64,000 nt of DNA, from NCBI RefSeq assembly GCF_009914755.1, contig NC_060936.1. The stretch is one strand, 5' to 3'. Numbering within the stretch: position 1 is the first letter of the stretch; each line of letters starts with the position of its first letter. The stretch comes from the human T2T-CHM13v2.0 reference genome, Homo sapiens. Both the position numbers and the translations under genes were made by a program. The notes beneath the pieces were generated by a model that saw nothing but the letters and a program-made list of their open reading frames with translations, had not been told where the DNA came from and ran no database searches. Positions 23,161 to 56,846 of the stretch are shown here, one piece after another.

Positions 23161-24409
23161 TATTCCCTGAAACTGGAATGGCTATACACAGGAGCCCTGG
23201 TTATAAGGTTTTCATCGAGATTGAAAGAAGCATTTTATATAAATTATTTAATATTGCAGTTAATGCATAATATACACTTAATACATGGTAACAATTTATA
23301 TATAGTAATTTATATATTTTAATGCATTTCCCTTCAATACATAATTATATATTCAATGTCTTGATAGAGGAATTATAGAAATTATGTGTCACATAACGTC
23401 ATATTAAATTTCATTGTCACTCTTAACTGTTAGGTTTAATTGCTGAAGACCAACCGATAGACCATAATTATCACAAAATATAATGTAACTATGTTACATA
23501 GGCCAGATATTTAAAACCATGAATAGACCATGCACTTTAGCATCCCATTCAGTTAGAGTGACACTGGATAAATAAGAACAAATAAGAATCAGAGCTTTTT
23601 GTGTAATGACAGGGAAAACTTCTGATAGAAAAAAAGATGCAAGCCAAATATATCAATATATTATTCTCCTATTTATAAGTTGCAAAATATTTTAATTAAT
23701 CACTTGAAAAATAGGCTGGCTAAAATGAAAGAGAGCTGTCTCTTCTTCAACCCATATGCAAATCTAATTTTCTTTGTAACCATTTCACCTCAGTGGCCTC
23801 CTTTTGTATGGTGCACTATTCTTTTCTAACTTCTGAATTTGTGTTAGTTTGCTGTTGGCAGGGGTAAGGTCGGAAATAATATGGACTTTCTATTGAAATC
23901 TGTGTTCCCCACCTCCATGAAAGGAAGCAAAGACATGAATATGGCACCCTCATAATGATTTAGCTGGGGCTTAATGAAATTTTCATCACAACCTGCTGTT
24001 CATTTTAATGGCCTTTGAAAAACAATGGCAAAAATAGCTTGAGGGAAGAAAAGATTTTTCTGTGGCATATATTTGTGAGCTTAACATTTAGTTACATTCA
24101 CTCTATCTTTGCTTCCCTCATAGTCATGATGTTGTTCCCATTACAGAGCTATGAAAATATTTTGTAGTTTTTAGAGTATAAGTTTTTTAGTTATTTTGTC
24201 AGATTTACTCCTAAGTATTTTATTCTTTCTGATACTATGTTGCATCACAGAGCTTTGGAACATTTGTGCTGTACATAGTGTCATTGTCCTGATGCTTAGA
24301 TGATGTAAGGTTTTGGTGACTATTCTCAGGTCAAATCATACCCTTTGATTAATGAAGTCATTGAAGCCAATGTAGCTTACCAGTTGTTGGAAGAGTCGTA
24401 TACATCTCC

Positions 24410-25453
24410 ATATATACATGTGTATATATAATATATTTATATTTATATGATATATAATATATATTTATATAATATATATTTATATTTATATAATATATAA
24501 GATATATTTATATTTATATTTGTATAATATATAAGATATATTTATATTTATATAATATATAAGATATATTTATATTTATATAATATATAAGATATATTTA
24601 TATTTATATAATATATAAGATATATTTATATTTATATAATATATAAGATATATTTATATTTATATAATATATAAGATATATTTATATTTATATAATATAT
24701 AAGATATATTTATATTTATATAATATATAAGATATATTTATATTTATATAATATATAAGATATATTTATATTTATATAATATATAAGATATATTTATATT
24801 TATATAATATATAAGATATATTTATATTTATATAATATATAAGATATATTTATATTTATATAATATATAAGATATATTTATATTTATATAATATATAAGC
24901 TATATTTATATTTATATAATATATAAGCTATATTTATATTTATATAATATATAAGCTATATTTATATTTATATAATATATAAGCTATATTTATATTTATA
25001 TAATATATAAGATATATTTATATTTATATAATATATAAGATATATTTATATTTATATAATATATAAGATATATTTATATTTATATAATATATAAGATATA
25101 TTTATATTTATATAATATATAAGATATATTTATATTTATATAATATATAAGATATATTTATATTTATATACTATGTTTATATTTATATAATATATATTTA
25201 TATTTATATAGTATATGTTTATATTTATATAATATACATTTATATTTATATAATGTACATTTATATTTATATTATATACATTTATATATTTTTATATAAT
25301 ATATATTTATACTTATATATATATTTATATTTATATATATTTATACTTATATACTATATATTTATATTTATACAACATATATTTATATTACATATATTTA
25401 TATTTATATAATATATATTTATATTACATATATTTATATTTATATTATATATA
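24410..25453. repeat. AT-rich minisatellite: 24 copies of a 28-bp unit (taatatataagatatatttatatttata) in 24491-25168, with degenerate AT flanks
   Basis: The single G recurs every 28 nt from 24535 to 25151 (23 units), plus one unit at 24501; four consecutive units carry aagct instead of aagat. Confidence 0.97.
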
Positions 25454-26071
25454 CCCATTTTTCTTTCTTTGTAATTTAGAAAAACAAAGTTCTGTCAACA
25501 TTCTACTATTCTTTTTTATGATACAATTTTTGCTTTGTTACTGTTTTTTTTGGTGATTAAGATCATTGCCTTACTCAAATACATAAATTACTCCTTGATG
25601 CATCTCTCCCATCATTGCAGTTATTAAATAAACGTTCTTGTCATAGCAAATTCTCAATAAAAGTGAGTCTATTTATAGTTTTGTATATTCAAAGTACATG
25701 TCAAAGAATCTTGTGTATGTAAACATCAATGCATCTTAGTGGTTCTATGTTTATGCTAAAATTACCTTTCTGAAACTAACACTTTTAGATGCTTGCTTTG
25801 TGCAATTTATATTCCAATCTTTCATAAATACTACCTCTGTATTTTCTCTTTGTCTTTATTTACCAAGTCACTCCTCAGCTCAGCTTTTAATATATTTGTA
25901 GAGAAGAAAGTACAAAAGGTACATTGTCGTAGGAAATAAAATAAAAACATTCTCATGTTCAGGTACAATAGTGACGTTTCTTTGTGTCTACATTTCCTGC
26001 TATGGACGCGCTATTGCTCTATTTCTTCTTTTATACCCAAGTTGTTCTTACTAGATATTACCCTTTTCTAA

Positions 26072-31965: not shown

Positions 31966-33232
31966 GCTATGACTTCAGGTGATTTTTATTTTCTTCCTTA
32001 TAATGTTTTATGTTTTTAAAATAATTATTATAAAACTGTCTTATTTTTAATATTAGGAAACAATCCACCATTTTAAACACATAAGGTTGTCTGGATCCCC
32101 CTCAACACTGCATTTTTATCTCCATGAGAATAGGAGGACATGTAACAAAATATCCAAAATCTTTGGCTGACAAGAATATCTCTAAAATTCTTTCCAATTC
32201 TCAGATCATGAGAACTGCATAAATTTTAACCAAAATCCAGGTCCCAGTTATGCACTTGGTAGGGAACCAGAAATATTTAATTGTCACATGGCTGTCACAT
32301 ATACAGGATAACAGAATTTTGTGTCAGATATCCTGATAATTTACCAGTGTCCTAACAGACTAGAAATGAGCCCAACTTATTGTTACACGGTATACACGCA
32401 GTGTATTTTTGTTATAAAGTATGTCTGCACATCATTGTTTATTTGTTTTAAATTTCCATCTGATTGAAACAGGAGGCATGTTCTTGTGTGCAGTATGGCA
32501 CCCATGCTTAGGATGGACAGAGGTTTAAATAGGAGTTAGTAAGCATGTGTAACATAAAGGATGATTGTCAATTATGCATAAGTTTGTACAATTTGCAACA
32601 GTTATTTTATTGGCTTGTTTGCTTTAATTTTAAGATTAGTCCATTTGCCTATCACCTGAAGGTTGCTATCAGGAACTATTAAAGAGATTTAGAGGATAAA
32701 ATCTTAAAAGAAAGACTTTCTGGAAGTTGAACAAATAGGAACTTAAGCATATCTAAAAGTTAAAGAATCACTAATTTGTAAGTATATAATAGTCCTAACC
32801 ATATTAATTTTTGACTATACAAGAAACAGGATAAGATGTATTAATGTGTAAAGGTTACAAAATGTAGTGAAATTCTACATTAATCCTCAAGGGGAAAAAA
32901 AAATGGAGAGAAACAAACTAGGCTGCAGATATTTGACAAGCAGGTGACTATTCCCGGCTCTGCTGCCACATTCTATTCTTGAATCTTTTTCATGCAACTA
33001 ATTTACTCATATGTGAAAATAACATCACAACATAAATTAATGATTTAAAAAATTGAGATAGACAGGGCTAAGTGTTTCTGAAAAAAATATACCAACCGTC
33101 TTCATAGCAATAGGTTTCCATCTTGCCCAATTTAACTTTAAGAGTATAAATCAAAAAACAAATCAAGAAATTAAAATCAAAGTATTAAAATCAGGACACA
33201 GCACCAACTTTGTTTTCTCTTCCAGCCTTTAC

Positions 33233-33443
33233 CTTCCGGCTCGTTTTTGATGAGCTCTTCCATTTTCCTCTGCTTCAAGGTGTCAACAACATCAGCTAAA
33301 CTGCCCTTGCGCCGTTCAGGAGTTCCCAGGGCTGTACTAGACAAGGACTCGCCACTCTGTCGCCCACCTTCTTCTGCCTTCTGAGGTGAGGTAGATGAGT
33401 TGTGTGGGGCAAATGAAGACATAACTTTATTGCCATCAACTTC
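33233..33443 (-). CDS. SOX5: Internal coding exon (211 nt, phase 0 to phase 1) of SoxD transcription factor L-SOX5, probably coding exon 3
   Basis: Minus strand reads ttttgctttctctttcag|GAAGTTGATGGC...GAGCCGGAAG|gtaaag, with canonical AG and GT. The translation [70 protein letters not shown] matches my recall of human SOX5 and includes the SoxD-conserved [19 protein letters not shown] motif. The exon number is from recall. Confidence 0.97.
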
Positions 33444-33550
33444 CTGAAAGAGAAAGCAAAATGACAAATAATTGTTTACCTGAAAGAGAGAGCAAAAGGA
33501 CAAATAATTGTTTACCTGAAAGAGAAAGCAAAAGGACAAATAATTGTTTA
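33443..33550 (-). repeat. Three tandem 36-bp copies of the SOX5 exon acceptor region
   Basis: Units 33443-33478, 33479-33514 and 33515-33550. Plus-strand consensus cctgaaagagaaagcaaaaggacaaataattgttta; the first two units each differ from it at one base. Confidence 0.97.
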
Positions 33551-35484
33551 AAATTCAGTAACTTTAAAAAATTGGTTATATGGCTTATTCAGCTGAAAGA
33601 TTAAAAAGTGAAATGTCACTCTGCAAGAGGCAAAGAAACCAAGAAATTTCAAAAAAGAATAAATTCAGTTTTCATGGTAGTACTAGAGTAAGTCAAAGAT
33701 CTATTCAAAGGAGAAACCAAATATGGAGATTCTCTCCTTTAAACTGAGTATAAATGACAATATAGTCCTATACGAAGCCTATATTATTAGATTTGTTTAT
33801 TTTCCTGCTTTTGTTTGAGAGCCTCAGATTTTCTTATGGGTATTAAATGTAGTGATCATTTGTGTTAAACTTCCTGACTTTGTAATATTTAAACAAATAT
33901 CATTACACACAATTTATGTTCATTTTCAGTAGCTGCCTCTTCTTGATAATACTCTAATAAAGTTTTAGTTTTTCCACCTCCCTCTCCTTCTTTTAAGAAA
34001 GCATCCATCACACAGGTTATTTGACATCAGACAAGAATATTCCAAGTTCAATTCTGCCTATGATGAAGACATTTTCAACTTCATTTGTTACATGAAGCAC
34101 AGTTTGTCAACACTCTTTGCTATTTTGTATTTTAATCCTCATTTGCCCTATAAAATAAGGTTTGTTGCAGTTTTTGCTTCTTCATAGTCATGTGGGTATG
34201 TGAATAAAAATAATTTATTGTATGGTTCTAAAATGTAAATATCTTTTTATAGTCTATTGTCATTTTCTCACATATTCTAGCACAAATCTGGTAATTTGTA
34301 TAATATTTGGGGAATATTTTGTATAAAACATATTAAGGTGATTTTTTAGAAATTATCAGGAGGAGTGATAATGAAATGATAAAGAAAAATTAATTTTCTT
34401 ACTTAAAGATTTTCCTTGTATAGTCTCTTACTTCCATAATCCTTTACCTCTCACAAAACAGACATCTTAAACATAAAGCTGTATCCTAAGATCTTTGAGA
34501 CTCACACTAAAAATATTTCTTAATTCTACAACATTAAAAGTTCGCATTAAAATATATTTGAATGTGTGCCTATTTAATATTCAGGATATTAGATTATACC
34601 TGTTTGCACATTTCTTCTCTACCTATTTGAGACACAGTAATACAATCTGTTGACTTCCAAAAAGTAACAAATCACACTGATTGATACTCAATATTTTTAA
34701 GGTTAATGCAATATTTTGGACTAGCTTAAAAATATGCTAACATACTTGGTTTAAAAACCATCAGTGTAATTTTGAAAAATAGATTAAAAATAGATACGTC
34801 AACACAAACATAATCTGTTAATATGTTTTTTTTTGTTGTTAAGATATTAGTGAGTACAGGGACAACAGGCTATGTTACAAACATCAGTTTGTTGCATGTG
34901 GCTGAGGCATGTGGGGAAGGCGAAAAAAAAAATGTGCACAACAGAATCTTCCAAATTATAATTCTAAACCTCAAATGGCTTTCATTTCTCACAAACATTA
35001 CAGAATATGCCTCTGACTAGCACTATGCCTTGAGTGAATATTTTATGGACAAAGTAGCTTATAACATACTTGGATTTAGAAATCAATGTACAAAATGTAA
35101 CAATTACAAACTCCCGCACGTTAAGTGAAGGTACACTTCTGGAATTATTAAAACCTACATAAATATACAAACACATAAACACACACACACACAGAGCCCT
35201 AAAAAGAGCAATCACAAATTCATTCAGTAAATTAATAGGAATGTTTTTATGAATGGTCCATAACACACATTAGCTTAGTTTCATGTGCAAACAGAATATT
35301 GCGAAACCTCTGTACTAATTTTCCACAGAAGATCTTCCTTCTTATTTCTTTCCAGGACCAAAAGCAGAAACATCCCAATGTTAGCTACACTTTGAACATT
35401 TCTGTCTGTACTCTGCTTTCACATTATATGATGACAAACTTTAGAAACAATAATTGGGCAGCTGACCTTTAATTGCCATAATTG

Positions 35485-35700: not shown

Positions 35701-36574
35701 TTTATCTTACCACTATTTCACCTGCCTGATTACATTTCAGCCTCTGGCACTGTTAATCTCCTTAACAGTTTTATGTAGTTAACAGCTGTTTCAGTGTGGG
35801 ACACTGTTGTTCATTTGCATGGTGAATAGCTTGTTAAGGAGTGCTAGCACAGTCTTCAGTCAAGGAAATCCTATCTTTTTCAGAGTTCCTTCCCTGGGAT
35901 TGCATTTGTCATACATGAAGTAATGATTCCATGTGTCACTTCACTTTGCTGGCAGGTGAAATCAAGAGAACCAGCTAACATAAGCATAAGTGGTCCAGAC
36001 CAGCAATATCTATTTAATCAAGTTTTGTGAATTCTAAGGGCATACCAGTACTTTGCAAACAAGTTCCCCAAACTGTGATATACGACCTCTAAATTCTAAT
36101 CATAAAAGAGGTCTCTAAACTTTCAGAATAAAGTTGATAATCTTCCTTTGTTATTTTTGAACAAGTTTTGCTTAACCTTACCCCTTTTGTTATCTTTGCA
36201 ACCAATAGAAAAAGGATCTGCCTAACATAGCTGTCCTCATTAAAATATCTTTTTAAAACTGAATTCTTGTTAATTCATTTTAAAGACAGAATATTGCTAT
36301 GAACACGTCGAAAGAAATATTATTTCAACCTTAATATTTAAACTCTATATGATGTGCTAATTAAGAAGAATTAACTCATTTTATAAAAGAAGAGATTATA
36401 TGAAATAACCAGATACATGTGTTTCTTTTATTATTCAAGTGACATTTCATCCTTGACTTCTGGCCTTAAGAAACATGTTATTATGCTTACTTATTGGCCT
36501 TATAAACTGAAATTAAGTTCATACTTAGACACATTACATTAATATTCAATCTATCAGACAGTAATTGATAAGAA

Positions 36575-38238: not shown

Positions 38239-39981
38239 TACCTGACCTAAATATATACCTTCATAGAAAAATAATATCAGCTCATCAGTATAGACAATTA
38301 GGTTATTTTAAAAAACCAGTTGCTTGCAAAAGAAAAAAAAAACCTTATCAAGATAAAAGTTTACCCCTTATCAAGATAAAAGTTTATTTAAGGTATATAT
38401 GTTAATATCTTAAAATTTTACTGCTCTAAAGATAAGCATTTAGAAAGAGATACATATTTTAGTTATTCTTTAAAGAGAAATAAATAGGGCAATCATTGTT
38501 TTCTTATTCAGCAATCATCTTGTGATAATATGCACAGAAATCTGAAATACAAGACAGAATTGCTAACTTCTACAAATGAAGTTTGCAATTTTGACAGCAA
38601 GTTTTATCAGCTCAATTTTCCAATATTAATGTTCCTAAAAATGAGATGTAAATATAAAAGAGATACATTGAGGCAAAACCAAGTTTAAAAAACTTGATAG
38701 AAAACACTAAGAAATTTTCTTTCGTTAAGATTATCAAATTAAATACTCTGGGAACAAGATATTGTCAGTTCCCAATACCCACAGAATACAAGTCAGCACT
38801 TACAGACAGACCTCTGAAGAGTGTTTGTTATAGTAATGATTATGGATCAAGTCATCCAATTTAAAGCCTTTCCTTTTGTCTGAAACATAGCTAATTGTAC
38901 TTAGGTCCAGTAGTTCAAAAAATGAAAAATAAGAGAGGTACTTTTGTTTGGGCTATTTCAGTAGTTCACCGAGAGAGAGAGCTTATCACAACTGGTCATC
39001 CTTCTATATTTGAAAAAGCCACTGATAATACCTTTGTAAAACTGACAGATCAGCACTTACAACATCAGGGATCCTTAGTGCCTAAACAACTATAAGGTAC
39101 ACAACTTAAGATTATATATTTTAGATGAGTGGGCCTGGAATCTATCTTGGGATAGGGTCAGAAAGCAACATATATGCATTTTTTAAAGTTCTCTAAAGAA
39201 GTGTGATGATCAGCGGCTAGGTTGGTATGTAGTGGCCTAATCTAGACCACTTACAAGCAAGTTAAGAGCCAAGTTAGTTTTTAAGGAATGCTTATATTAT
39301 ATATATTCAATATTTTCATATGATTGAAATTCTCTGAAAATTAGTATTTTGAATCCTTAGAAACATTTATTCATCACAATATTAAAAATGGATAGAAATT
39401 CTAAAATACTTAAACAGGCATCTGCAACCTTTTTTCTCTATGATCTACGGAAAGCTCTAATTTCCTGAACTAATGAGTTCTAATTTTTTCTAACTTTTAA
39501 AGAACATTGGAAAAACCTTACAAATTAATTTGTGTCTTTAAGGCAGACATAGCACACTCTCGGGGCAGACTGAATATTCTAGACAGTAACAGTCCTCATC
39601 AAGTTCAGGTAAAAAGATTATCATTTTATAAAAATGGCCCCATTATACTTCAAAAATATAATCCAGCCCGTATTTCAAACATTTCTTATGTATTTTGGGA
39701 CAGTGCAAACAGAAGTGAGAACTCTTTAATGTTTTTTTCAAAGCCTAAAAATATAGACTCTTTTAAAGATTGCTATTCAACAGGATGGAAATTCAGCAGA
39801 AGTCTAACTTGGTTTGCATTTCTTTGCCAAGCATTGAGATGAAATGTTAGTTTAGGCTTTTATTTAATTACTAATTAGGAAACTAAATAAATATTTAAAA
39901 GTGTGTTCTTTAAAAAATGCATTCAAATGGTACTAAACAGCAATAAAGAATGATAGCATAGTGACAGGTGATTTTTATAAA

Positions 39982-40156
39982 CATGATTCGCAAACGGTGG
40001 TCCTCAAAATAATGTCATTGGCATCACCGGGGAACACTTTCAACATTTTTCTCAGGCCTCACCCCAGACTTCCTGAATCAGATGTTCAGGAGGTGGAGCC
40101 CAACCAAATCTGAGTTAACAAGCCTTCCATGTGAGACTGAAGTTTGAGAACTACTG
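39982..40156. mobile_element. MER5A-like hAT-Charlie MITE
   Basis: ctcaggcctcaccccagacttcctgaatcaga...aacaagccttcca...aagtttgagaactactg. Confidence 0.75.
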
Positions 40157-41592
40157 TCATAGGAAAAACTGTTAAGAGCTAAGGAGAGAAAAAGAGGCAG
40201 AGAAGGAAAGGGGGGAATGATTAAAAGCTGCAGTGGGGAAGAAAGACATCATTAAAGTAATGGGACAAGAATTTGAGAAGAGTGAGAAAAGGTAATATAT
40301 TCCAGGGAGGAAAAGAAGGATAGTGGGGATGGAGAAGAGTCAGCACACATGCAAAAATTATATATATATATACATATATATATATATACACACACATATT
40401 GTAAAAGAATGACTTTGAATTTTTTAATAGTCATTTTGGCATTTGTTGAAACACGCTTATGTTTCCTGATGTCCTACTAACTATATAGATTAGGAAATCT
40501 CAGATTTCCTAATTCACAAAATTGAATTGTGAAAATAGATTGTTTTTAGAAATGCACCAACATTTAGTTTAAATTTATTAATAATTAGATCTCATTTACA
40601 ATATGAAAATATTATATTTTGTTTTATAAATCACTATCAGATTTACCATCTAATTTAATGATGGTGAATGAAACTGCAAGTTAAGGGCAAATTTTCTGAT
40701 TATCAATAAGAGATGCTATAAATAGGAGAAACAGTTTTAAAAATATCTTTATTTTCATGTAGATGCTGCATGGGCAAAAGTGTCTAACGTGTTTTTTTTT
40801 TTTTTTTTTACCCCAAATGCTCCTTCAGAGTATTTGAAAATATTCCTTCAGAATCACACTTGCTAATAATCTCAGAAATGCTGCATTCAAGAATAAAATG
40901 TATGTTTTCATGTGCTCTCAAAACCTCTTAATAAGCAAAAGTGGCATTTAGAAAATTGCTAATACATTAACTAATAGAACCCGTAAAAACAAAGAACATT
41001 TTGTGCTGTGACAGCCTCATTATCTTCCTGGGGATGATATGTGCTCTGTGTCTTAGTTATGTTTAAACATCTAGCAAATACACTTTAAAACGTTTGATGA
41101 TCTCTTCCCTGAGTGAGCAAAGACCAACCATAAGAGGTGTCTAAACAAAAGTTAGACTACAAATCAAAACATTTTCCTTTTAACATTTGTAATAAATTTA
41201 ACATGTATTGTAACTAGCCACTGATTAGATATAATTTTTCTGTCATTCTCCTAAATCTCTAGAACCTTTTTATTGTCGTTTTTAGTAAACTTGACTAAAT
41301 ATCTATTCACTCTATGTGTCTGAAGGAAGAAATAAGATATAAGGAATTTCTCAAATTTTCATCTGTATTCTGTACCAAAATTTTTAATAGAGTTGCTTAA
41401 GTATAGAAAATTGAGGAAATGACTTACTTTTATCCCACATAGCAATAAATGTAGTTTTTTAATACAGAGCATTCATTCAGTGAAGAAGCTAAACGTTTGC
41501 TAGCACTGCTTATAACTGGAAACTGACTATGTCTTCACTAATAAATAAAATAGATTGTGGTCCTCCCATGCAGTAAAATATAATGGCAGCAA

Positions 41593-55382: not shown

Positions 55383-56846
55383 TTGGTTAAAAAATGTGTA
55401 AAAACATCACCTGCTTTTAATATTAGCTGGTTTAATAAGATTTCCTATTTGACCTTTTTGTACATGCAATGAACTGTTCTATTTCACGGCTCCACTTCGT
55501 ATTTCTAGGGAAGATAAGAATGTTAAGATTTCTTTCTGCTGATTACTCCAACATGCTTAATTATTTATCTAATTTTTCCACCTTCTAACTGGCCTGGGAA
55601 GAATAAACAACTTTAAGGTTCAGAAAAGAATATCAAGCATTTTGAAGCAAGAGCAAATTCATTTTCATACCTGAGTAAGAAAAGTAGCAATATAGGTACT
55701 CATTGTCATTTCTCATACTCTTCAGAAAACCCACTCTTACTTTCCATTCACTTTTGCTCGTGGTAATCTCTATAATTCAACCCTAAGTTATATGTACAAG
55801 TATTTTTCTGACACATAGCAGACCAAAAAATTGTCTGGTCTTAATTCACAGAACTTACTTGACAATTTATGTATTTCACTAAAATACAAATAAGCCAAGT
55901 ACCAGCCAACATCTTGGAGGGATTTTCTTAAACAGAACACCCATATCCCTTCATTCCCACCCTACCCTCGCCTGAACCATGGTTCAATTTTGCTCCCATG
56001 GATTTGGTCTGGAAACAAACCAGTATTAGGCTTTTTTATTCAATGTTTCCTAAAGATACATATTTTGAGTATAAACTAAATAATAAATTGAGTTCATGAG
56101 ATAGGATTTTTATTAAGCAATTCGCATACTCCAAACCTCTTATGACTCCTCAACAACTGTAGATTATAAAGTCCTAATTTTTGATAGCATTCAAGGCCCC
56201 CCAGAATCTGCCCTTCATCTACCTTTTCAACTTTTTCACATTAAAACATAATCTTTCAGGTCAGGCCCATTCTTATAGGCTGCGTAACTTTATGCTCTGC
56301 ACTTCTGTATTTACATCAGTAAAATGGAAATAATGATAGCTTTGCAGAAGGTTGTTAAAGATTACATGACATGATGAATATAAATACTTAACCTAATTCC
56401 TAGCCTACACTTACATTTAGCTAAATGTTATTTCCTTTTTACTAGATTCCTTGAAAGTACACTCTTCATCAAATACATTAACTTGCCTAGTGTTCCACAC
56501 ACATACCCAGAAGTTCCCTGAAAAGACAAAATGTAGTGCAGGTTATATGCTACATAATTTTCACAACATACCTAGAATATCTGTTCCTTATTATAAGCTC
56601 TTTTCCCTCACTTTGCTTGGAATATCTTCCCCTCAATTTCTCTCCACCTCCACACACATTTTCAAATCATATCTATCCTTCATGACTTTGCTTAAATATC
56701 TTAGTTTTTAGGAAGCCTTTCTTCATTTCTACCCTTTCACTGAAACCCCACCAGCCTACCGCCCTACTTCTGAAATTGATCTCATGCACCTCTGTTTTGT
56801 TCTAATCTGTACATGTGTATTGGATGTGTGCCATGGTCCTCTAGAA

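What the first reader, a model, noticed from the sequence alone, without database searches (positions are those of the whole stretch)
33443..33560. Triplicated, in-frame 3' splice site of the SOX5 exon creates two extra acceptors that are also AG|GT junctions
Seen: the pre-mRNA reads [taaacaattatttgtccttttgctttctctttcag|g] three times before the exon, giving three nearly identical polypyrimidine-CAG acceptors 36 nt apart (exon starts 33515, 33479, 33443). The unit is 12 codons with no stop, so the upstream acceptors would add [12 protein letters not shown] (+12 aa) or [24 protein letters not shown] (+24 aa), hydrophobic Cys/Phe-rich inserts. Each upstream AG is followed directly by GTAAAC, the AG|GT layout of recursive splice sites. 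The most branch-point-like motif I see (tactgaa, 33560-33554) lies upstream of the farthest acceptor. Established: the spliceosome usually takes the first AG after the branch point, yet the recalled SOX5 protein uses the third. Inference: either extended isoforms exist, or first splicing at 33515 reconstitutes a donor and the 72-nt remainder (near the minimum human intron size) is re-spliced out. Copy number could be polymorphic and tune splicing of a dosage-sensitive gene (Lamb-Shaffer syndrome).
Basis: partly seen in the sequence, partly recalled or inferred. Interest (0 to 1): 0.82.

Follow-up and report, generated by a model that had tools for sequence, protein, structure and literature searches.

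The report
Triplicated splice acceptor before SOX5 exon
A 36-base stretch holding the whole splice-acceptor signal of one SOX5 coding exon is present three times in a row, and all annotated messages use only the copy touching the exon, so it looks like an old, tolerated tandem duplication and not a proven two-step splicing device.

Summary
Window 33443-33550 holds 3.0 copies of a 36-nt unit (95% match). On the gene's strand each unit ends in a long pyrimidine tract plus CAG|G. Acceptors would start the exon at 33515, 33479 and 33443. The extra 36 or 72 nt are in frame and stop-free.

The GT after each upstream AG is simply the repeat junction: the last G of a unit, which is the exon's first base, followed by the first T of the next unit.

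By my own weight matrix the three acceptors rank 1, 2 and 4 of 4092 AGs in the window. Yet 39 of 39 RefSeq mRNAs that hold the exon start it at 33443, and 0 of 37 SOX5/SOX6 protein fragments carry the insert.

The rebuilt donor ATG|GTAAAC is weak (9.7th percentile). A 72-nt intron is at the lower limit (24 of 13,224 curated chr12 introns are that short or shorter).

Best reading: an old duplication of a complete acceptor module, with the exon-proximal copy in use. Reads, lariats and other genomes were out of reach. It is a new member of a known kind, of moderate interest.

The parts
33515..33550 (-). Distal repeat unit (U1). It equals the consensus of the three units and ends in CAG|G, with the AG at 33517-33516. 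Its last base, 33515, is the first base of a +72-nt exon.
33479..33514 (-). Middle repeat unit (U2). It has a private T>C at unit position 25, which makes CTCTCTCT. Its AG is at 33481-33480. Its last base, 33479, is the first base of a +36-nt exon.
33443..33478 (-). Proximal repeat unit (U3). It has a private C>A at unit position 17 (33462). Its AG at 33445-33444 is the annotated acceptor. Its last base, 33443, is the first base of the exon.
33233..33443 (-). SOX5 coding exon, 211 nt. It starts in phase 0 with EVDGNK. It is the third exon of the MANE transcript NM_006940.6 (exon 3 of 15).
   Evidence: annotation supplied with the finding
33510..33518 (-). U1/U2 junction read as a donor, CAG|GTAAAC. 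Own donor matrix score 7.49, the 36th percentile of true donors.
33474..33482 (-). U2/U3 junction read as a donor, CAG|GTAAAC. Score 7.49.
33554..33560 (-). TACTGAA, the best branch-site-like heptamer near the array: 5 of 6 positions can pair with U2, with the A at 33555. It lies 39, 75 and 111 nt before the G of the three AGs.
33546..33552 (-). TTTAAAC, the branch-like heptamer of U1 (A at 33547, 4 of 6 pairs), 31 nt before U1's AG.
33510..33516 (-). GGTAAAC, the branch-like heptamer at the head of U2 (A at 33511, 4 of 6 pairs), 31 nt before U2's AG. It overlaps the donor-like GTAAAC.
33474..33480 (-). GGTAAAC, the branch-like heptamer at the head of U3 (A at 33475, 4 of 6 pairs), 31 nt before the annotated AG and downstream of the middle AG.
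33555..33557 (-). In-frame TGA that closes the reading frame upstream of the array.
33227..33235 (-). Natural donor of the exon, AAG|GTAAAG. Score 7.62, the 38th percentile.

Best explanation
A 36-bp segment that spans the intron/exon boundary by one exonic base was duplicated twice in tandem. Replication slippage or unequal exchange is the inferred cause. The segment holds a complete acceptor module: a branch-like TAAAC head, a pyrimidine tract of about 24 nt, and CAG|G. The pre-mRNA therefore carries three near-identical acceptors. The GT behind the two upstream AGs is a by-product of the unit junction. The spliceosome mainly uses the exon-proximal module directly. A branch inside the proximal unit, near A33475, sees the annotated AG as its first downstream AG, and that copy alone abuts the purine-rich exon. 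The two upstream modules are largely silent pseudo-acceptors that at most give low-level in-frame +12 or +24 aa products. Shown: the anatomy, the site scores and the annotation. Inferred: which branch is used, why the proximal copy wins, and how little the upstream copies are used.
For: The repeat and its exact limits are shown. The junction origin of the GT follows. All 39 RefSeq mRNAs that contain the exon (39 of 40 SOX5 mRNAs) start it at 33443. None of the 37 SOX5/SOX6 fragments of 52-165 aa holds any 4-5-mer of the insert. Of these, 15 show the EVDGNK or DGNK start, including one human partial protein joined LPLH|EVDGNK. Each unit has a branch-like heptamer 31 nt before its own AG. A nearest upstream AG within 36 nt is ordinary: 116 of 189 true acceptors, median 32 nt. 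The rule that the first AG after the branch is taken is quoted in passages of PMC9284458. The exon begins GAAGTTGATGG and holds GAAGGCAGAAGAAGG, whereas an extended exon would begin with 36-72 nt of pyrimidine tract. Two private substitutions in 108 nt point to an age of millions of years, so the array has been tolerated in a gene whose haploinsufficiency causes disease (abstract of PMC11285261).
Against: By my matrix the upstream acceptors score higher (16.17 and 15.33) than the annotated one (14.33). The best branch-like motif, TACTGAA (5 of 6 pairs), lies upstream of all three, and from it the first AG is the distal one. None of 189 true acceptors examined has an upstream AG within 110 nt that scores 14 or more, so this is an unusual competition. 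A figure legend in PMC8055015 says upstream minor sites are used more when strengths are near equal. PMC10809524 reports that AGGT sites act as both donor and acceptor 3.1-fold more often than expected. No RNA reads, lariats or mapped branch points were seen. My matrix was trained on only 346 acceptors and 341 donors from gene-dense chr12 tiles.
Confidence: 0.55

Rival explanations
1. The upstream acceptors are really used at an appreciable level in some tissue or stage. They would give unannotated SOX5 isoforms with 12 or 24 extra hydrophobic residues between the N-terminal exon and EVDGNK.
For: The upstream sites are the two best-scoring AGs of 4092 on this strand of the window. The inserts are in frame and stop-free, so they would escape nonsense-mediated decay. 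The strongest branch-like motif precedes the distal AG by 39 nt. The published catalogues would miss them by design. TASS clusters need sites within 30 nt. Recursive-site screens drop sites within 100 nt or 75 bp of annotated sites.
Against: 0 of 39 RefSeq models, including 33 Gnomon models among those 39, use them. 0 of 37 protein fragments hold the insert, although only proteins of 52-165 aa could be seen. An exon opening with a pyrimidine tract is a poor exon start (inference).
Confidence: 0.2
2. Two-step removal. Either the upstream exon is first joined to 33515 and the rebuilt donor then removes the 72-nt remainder, or the 72 nt from the in-situ CAG|GTAAAC at the U1/U2 junction to the annotated AG are removed first as a nested mini-intron. 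The second route collapses the array to one unit. Because of the repeat phase, all these routes and direct splicing give the same mRNA.
For: AG|GT with a top-scoring acceptor side and a mid-range donor side: 7.49, 36th percentile. These are the two best dual-scoring sites of 198 AGGT on this strand. Introns of exactly 70-72 nt do exist among curated chr12 introns. PMC10809524 reports an 8.4-fold excess of introns delimited by dual-specific sites in tandem repeats, 77 of them with a length that is a multiple of the repeat unit.
Against: The rebuilt donor is weak: ATG|GTAAAC scores 4.63 (9.7th percentile) and CAT|GTAAAC 4.17 (8.2th), and 276 and 332 of 3338 GTs in the window do as well. That is at or below the 10th-percentile threshold used for putative recursive donors in PMC6224609. 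The same paper shows that the exon junction complex represses such rebuilt donors unless they are strong. Only 24 of 13,224 curated introns are 72 nt or shorter, and the 36-nt version is in effect impossible. Inside a 72-nt intron the branch-like A33475 would lie only 40 nt from the donor. No RefSeq intron has these ends.
Confidence: 0.12
3. The extra units act as a regulatory platform and not as splice sites. They would offer added pyrimidine tracts for U2AF or PTB-type proteins and U1-binding GTAAAC sites, which raise or lower inclusion of the exon or mask the upstream AGs.
For: There are three pyrimidine tracts in 108 nt. The middle unit's private change makes CTCTCTCT, which I recall as a PTB-type motif. 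The in-situ CAG|GTAAAC matches the donor consensus from -3 to +4.
Against: No binding or expression data were seen. With only two substitutions, nothing can be said about constraint. The fold of the region is unremarkable: z = -1.13, and 24 of 200 shuffles fold as well.
Confidence: 0.08
4. The three-copy state is private to this assembly, or is an assembly error, and most people carry one copy.
For: Tandem arrays change copy number easily (discussion of PMC10809524). Other assemblies could not be consulted.
Against: The three units differ by two substitutions, which a recent expansion would not show. At 0.5-1 x 10^-9 per site per year (recalled rates), two changes in 108 nt give 18-37 My, with 95% bounds of 2-134 My.
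Confidence: 0.03

Closest known systems
Dual-specific (AGGT) splice sites inside tandem repeats: UBC and VCX3A (Duan et al. 2024, PMC10809524; abstract and sections 6 and 9 read)
   Same: A tandem repeat whose unit carries an AG|GT. The unit length is a multiple of three. An added unit could either be spliced out or read in frame. The authors propose such expansions as mildly deleterious evolutionary intermediates.
   Different: In UBC and VCX3A the repeats are coding and introns between the sites are observed. Here the repeat is intronic, has only three units, lies on an acceptor, and no intron between its sites is annotated. The GT here comes from the junction and not from within a coding unit.
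Vertebrate recursive splice sites and RS-exons (Sibley et al. 2015, as cited; Blazquez et al. 2018, PMC6224609, passages)
   Same: A strong acceptor is followed directly by GT, so that joining to the upstream exon rebuilds a donor. The host is a long intron (49.6 kb) of a long, brain-expressed gene.
   Different: Known sites lie deep in introns and divide them into large pieces, and the second step skips the RS-exon and the following intron. Here the sites lie 36 and 72 nt from the real acceptor, the second step would be a 72-nt intron, and the rebuilt donor is weak.
Tandem alternative splice sites, TASS/NAGNAG (Mironov et al. 2021, PMC8055015, passages)
   Same: Several acceptors lie close together at distances that are multiples of three, with frame-preserving shifts.
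   Different: A TASS cluster is defined by successive sites within 30 nt, and these are 36 nt apart. TASS arise from consensus degeneracy and not from duplication of the whole module, branch site included.
Intrasplicing or nested splicing, as in the 4.1R gene (one passage of bioRxiv 10.1101/159350)
   Same: A first internal splice changes which acceptor the upstream exon meets.
   Different: In 4.1R the event is tied to the choice of first exon and has been shown by experiment. Here it is only a possibility drawn from sequence.
Disease-causing tandem duplications across an intron/exon boundary that add an in-frame upstream acceptor (recalled from memory, not checked in any call)
   Same: Duplication of the acceptor gives a choice between two copies and an in-frame insertion.
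   Different: Those are recent pathogenic alleles. This array sits in the reference genome and appears old.

Membership tests
Recursive splice site (vertebrate RS-site / RS-exon) | A strong polypyrimidine-AG acceptor is directly followed by GT. | tested here: met
   Acceptor scores are 16.17 and 15.33, the 98.6th and 94.8th percentiles of 346 true sites. Both are followed by GTAAAC.
Recursive splice site (vertebrate RS-site / RS-exon) | The donor rebuilt at the exon-exon junction is strong enough to be used. | tested here: inconclusive
   ATG|GTAAAC is at the 9.7th percentile and CAT|GTAAAC at the 8.2th percentile of 341 true donors. This is about the 10th-percentile threshold in PMC6224609. 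The scores come from my own small matrix and not from MaxEntScan.
Recursive splice site (vertebrate RS-site / RS-exon) | The site lies deep in a long intron and divides it into splice-competent segments. | tested here: not met
   The sites are 36 and 72 nt from the annotated acceptor. 24 of 13,224 curated chr12 introns are 72 nt or shorter, and 7 are 36 nt or shorter, four of them being 1-2 nt gaps.
Recursive splice site (vertebrate RS-site / RS-exon) | Junction, lariat or saw-tooth read evidence for the intermediate. | not testable with these tools
Published screens exclude sites within 100 nt or 75 bp of annotated sites.
Dual-specific splice site in a tandem repeat | An AGGT core within a tandem repeat, with a unit length that is a multiple of three. 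| tested here: met
Dual-specific splice site in a tandem repeat | The same site is observed both as a donor and as an acceptor. | not testable with these tools
   No read data. 0 of 39 RefSeq models use either role. The supplementary site lists of PMC10809524 are closed.
Tandem alternative splice sites (TASS) | Successive same-type sites lie within 30 nt of each other. | tested here: not met
   The spacing is 36 nt.
Minisatellite / VNTR | A tandem array with a unit of 7 bp or more. | tested here: met
   Period 36, 3.0 copies. The unit-size criterion is from the abstract listed.
Minisatellite / VNTR | Copy number varies among people. | not testable with these tools
   The assemblies look-up and reads are off. 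The one VNTR paper that names SOX5 gives no coordinates.

The most novel reading that the evidence does not exclude
The array is a self-erasing repeat. Because each junction is AG|GT and the unit is 36 nt, the two extra units are removed as a 72-nt piece, either before or after the 49.6-kb intron is joined. A repeat expansion across the acceptor of a haploinsufficient gene is thereby made invisible in the mRNA. This would be a living intermediate of the 'expansion buffered by dual-specific sites' route proposed for UBC and VCX3A. It sits in the 31-74-nt gap that both the tandem-site and the recursive-site catalogues leave out, and the +72 site also lies inside it.
Probability: 0.1. Interest if true: 0.6.

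Novelty: new member of a known kind. Interest (0 to 1): 0.35.

Why it matters
The array is a natural competition experiment. Three almost identical acceptor modules sit 36 nt apart, and the weakest-scoring one, nearest the exon, is the one annotated. This can test what decides acceptor choice: branch position, exon context, or U1 and PTB occupancy.

There is also a practical point, which is my inference and untested. Loss of the annotated AG of this exon in SOX5, the Lamb-Shaffer gene, might shift splicing to the copy 36 nt upstream. That would add 12 residues in frame, where a null allele would otherwise be assumed. An 'essential splice site' variant here should therefore not automatically be read as loss of function.

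The spacing also falls between the windows of the published tandem-site catalogue (within 30 nt) and the recursive-site screens (at least 75-100 nt away). Absence from those lists therefore says nothing.

Tried and rejected
Protein evidence for the insert. The word search with the 94-aa extended exon could only reach proteins of 52-165 aa. It gave 37 hits, none with the insert, which is a weak negative.

Processed-pseudogene fossil of the exon 2/3 junction. SOX5P1 exists on chr8. However, exon 3 as protein and as DNA matches only SOX5 itself, plus SOX6 for the protein. The pseudogene therefore does not hold this junction.

RNA structure that might hide the upstream sites. The fold of 33400-33620 is ordinary, with z = -1.13. 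The Rfam gathering search of the window gave 0 matches.

Dispersed repeat origin. This is rejected: there is one genomic place and the array is not among the masked repeats.

Literature. 'SOX5' with 'recursive splicing' gave 7 papers. I opened one, and there the two terms are unrelated. The other six I judged from titles and abstract starts only. 'SOX5' with 'c.232' gave 3 papers, none apparently about this acceptor, judged from the listing only. 'SOX5' with 'VNTR' and 'splicing' gave 10 papers. I opened one, which names a SOX5 intron without coordinates. The SOX5 minigene work I found concerns intron 13. Searches for duplicated-acceptor competition found nothing useful. I therefore found no description of this array in print within these searches. 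Supplementary tables (TASS list, dual-site list, splicing-associated repeats) are closed and might list it.

A larger training set for the splice matrices could not be had (see below). MaxEntScan, SpliceAI and branch-point predictors are not installed, so my matrix is a stand-in.

In one search my first scoring of the rebuilt donor used a wrong offset and scored a non-GT 9-mer. I corrected it, and only one search is used.
Full report
OBSERVATION. The minus strand of the window is the sense strand of SOX5. Reading it shows a 36-nt unit three times head to tail from 33550 down to 33443. Tandem Repeats Finder gives period 36, 3.0 copies, 95% matches, no indels and score 202. The repeat finder gives three in-register copies at 94-97% identity. 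The distal unit (33550-33515) equals the consensus. The middle unit (33514-33479) has one private T>C at unit position 25. The proximal unit (33478-33443) has one private C>A at position 17. Similarity ends exactly at both array ends. Each unit ends in ...CTTTCAG|G, so AG dinucleotides lie at 33517-16, 33481-80 and 33445-44. The last of these is the RefSeq boundary of the 211-nt coding exon 33233-33443. The added 36 or 72 nt translate without a stop as [12 protein letters not shown], or as [12 protein letters not shown] followed by [12 protein letters not shown], in frame with EVDGNK. A TGA at 33557-33555 closes the frame just upstream (read). The only correction is that the three units are not identical.

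WHAT THE AG|GT IS. The unit's last base is the exon's first G, and its first base is T. Placing units head to tail therefore writes CAG|GTAAAC at both internal junctions. The 'recursive' layout is a by-product of where the duplicated segment began and ended, and it needs no selection. The in-frame, stop-free property is also unremarkable: 10,379 of 20,000 shuffles of the insert are stop-free in that frame, and one unit length in three is a multiple of three. The unit is unique in the genome (one place) and is not among the masked repeats of the window.

GENE CONTEXT. 39 of the 40 RefSeq SOX5 mRNAs contain the exon, and all 39 start it at 33443. The exon is exon 3 of 15 in the MANE transcript. 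The upstream exon lies outside the window (fetched as L001). It has two annotated donors 105 nt apart...ACAATG|gtaggt and ...TTGCAT|gtgagt. By arithmetic on the coordinates, the upstream intron is 49,597 or 49,702 nt and the downstream intron is 89,680 nt.

SITE STRENGTH. MaxEntScan is not installed. I therefore built log-odds weight matrices from the splice sites of MANE transcripts that fall in 20 chr12 tiles of 10 kb. This gave 346 acceptors, all AG. It gave 343 donors, of which I used the 341 with GT and dropped 2 non-GT donors. Percentiles are leave-one-out.

- The three acceptors score 16.17 (98.6th percentile), 15.33 (94.8th) and 14.33 (90.8th), from distal to proximal. They rank 1, 2 and 4 of 4092 AGs on this strand of the window.
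- The in-situ junction CAG|GTAAAC scores 7.49 as a donor (36th percentile), close to the exon's own donor AAG|GTAAAG at 7.62.
- Of 198 AGGT on this strand, the two junctions are the best dual-scoring sites.
- Among 189 true acceptors examined, none has an upstream AG within 110 nt that scores 14 or more, and 22 have one that scores at least as high as the true site. These 189 are the acceptors among the 346 whose intron is at least 200 nt and whose 135 upstream bases lie inside a tile.

The competition here is therefore unusual. One caveat applies: the tiles are gene-dense and richer in G+C than this window.

BRANCH SITES. I used the recalled consensus (yUnAy; UACUAAC pairing to U2) and counted pairable positions for every A in 33600-33456. 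But each unit also begins with (T/G)(T/G)TAAAC (4 of 6), whose A lies 31 nt before that unit's AG. In the proximal unit this is A33475, five bases downstream of the middle AG. A branch there meets the annotated AG first. An AG-free stretch of only 36 nt is ordinary: 116 of 189 true acceptors have their nearest upstream AG within 36 nt, with a median of 32. Passages of PMC9284458 state the first-AG rule and the depletion of AGs between branch and acceptor. The same hexamer GTAAAC is thus a candidate both for U1 (as a donor) and for U2 (as a branch site). Sequence alone cannot say which.

IS THE UPSTREAM PAIR USED?
- Annotation: 0 of 39 transcripts use the upstream sites.
- Proteins: the word search with the 94-aa extended exon returned 37 proteins of 67-163 aa. 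None holds any 4-5-mer of the insert. 15 show the exon start, joined to LPLH (7, including one human partial protein), to HNTM (1) or to other sequence. The tool can only see proteins of 52-165 aa for this query, so full-length predicted isoforms were out of reach.
- A processed pseudogene could have preserved an old junction, but SOX5P1 does not contain this exon.
- Literature: I found no paper on this array.
- The published screens are blind here by construction. TASS clusters need successive sites within 30 nt (PMC8055015). Lariat-based recursive-site discovery drops sites within 100 nt of annotated sites and in repeats (PMC10156609). A 2026 preprint requires 75 bp (PMC13105047).
- PMC10809524 reports that 3.5% of all AGGT in transcripts serve as acceptors with more than 10 reads in the Sequence Read Archive, and that dual use is 3.1-fold enriched. 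Given the scores here, I expect some low-level use.

RE-SPLICING. After a first join to 33515 the rebuilt donor would be ATG|GTAAAC (4.63, 9.7th percentile; 276 of 3338 GTs in the window do as well). From the short upstream exon it would be CAT|GTAAAC (4.17, 8.2th percentile; 332 of 3338). PMC6224609 sets its threshold for putative recursive donors at the 10th percentile of real donors. It shows that the exon junction complex represses such donors unless they are strong. The remainder would be a 72-nt intron. Among 13,224 curated chr12 introns, 24 are 72 nt or shorter, with a cluster at 70-72 nt. The 7 that are 36 nt or shorter include four gaps of 1-2 nt. So 72 nt is possible but marginal, and 36 nt is not credible. 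Because of the repeat phase, a nested removal of the 72 nt from the in-situ donor at the U1/U2 junction to the annotated AG would rebuild a single-copy acceptor. Direct splicing, re-splicing and nested splicing then all yield the same mRNA. Only lariats, nascent reads and the two private substitutions can tell them apart.

AGE. There are two substitutions in 108 nt. At recalled rates of 0.5-1 x 10^-9 per site per year, this gives 18-37 My, with Poisson 95% bounds of 2-134 My. Gene conversion would make this an underestimate, and elevated repeat mutation would make it an overestimate. The array is therefore unlikely to be private to this assembly and is probably shared with other apes. Copy-number variants may still segregate. 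None of this could be checked, because other genomes and assemblies were out of reach.

VERDICT. The most likely reading (0.55) is an old tandem triplication of a complete acceptor module, in which the exon-proximal copy is used directly and the upstream copies are largely silent. The rivals are:
- real +12/+24-aa isoforms (0.2);
- two-step removal (0.12);
- a regulatory platform for U2AF, PTB or U1 (0.08);
- an assembly-specific state (0.03).

As a kind, splice sites multiplied by tandem repeats, with AG|GT junctions and units that are multiples of three, are in print (PMC10809524). This locus is a new member of that kind, with the particular twist that the repeat sits on the acceptor of a disease gene. 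It does not meet the positional definition of a recursive site or the 30-nt definition of TASS.

LIMITS. I had no reads, no lariats, no other genomes, no standard splice predictors and no supplementary tables. My matrices rest on 346 and 341 sites. The branch scoring rests on a recalled consensus.

Noticed in passing
L024 1790-1870 (SOX6, minus strand), compared with window 33443-33550: The paralogous SOX6 exon has a single TAG|G acceptor. About 85-140 nt upstream of it lie two copies of an 18-mer (tttatttgtcctactaag) about 47 nt apart. Its 11-mer ttatttgtcct also occurs in every SOX5 unit. This could be chance in T-rich sequence or a shared SoxD intronic element.
   Followed up: no
L001 242 and 347 (chr12:23767041 and 23767146): The upstream SOX5 exon, which holds the start codon, has two annotated donors 105 nt apart: ATG|gtaggt (32nd percentile) and CAT|gtgagt (66th percentile). 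Most protein fragments from other species use the short form, LPLH|EVDGNK.
   Followed up: partly
window 24423-25453: A large AT-rich minisatellite, 28-nt unit, 37 copies, 87% match, TRF score 1415. It lies inside a masked repeat at 24407-25492.
   Followed up: no
window 22522, 61734, 55670, 58664 (minus strand): Other strong splice-like sites lie deep in the intron. There are acceptor-like AGs scoring 14.43 (22522) and 14.02 (61734). There are AGGT sites with good scores on both sides at 55670 (11.66 / 8.04) and 58664 (9.15 / 9.33). These are candidates for cryptic exons or true deep-intron recursive sites.
   Followed up: no
window 33490-33483 (middle unit): The middle unit's private T>C makes an uninterrupted CTCTCTCT, which I recall as a PTB-type binding motif. 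The proximal unit's private C>A (33462) weakens its tract and makes TTGTCAT 18 nt before the AG.
   Followed up: partly
window 35871-36071 and 39989-40189: Two RefSeq 'silencer' features (MPRA fragments) lie 2.4 and 6.5 kb into the intron upstream of the exon.
   Followed up: no
window 38343-38386: An exact 23-nt direct repeat, 1.9 copies, 100% match.
   Followed up: no
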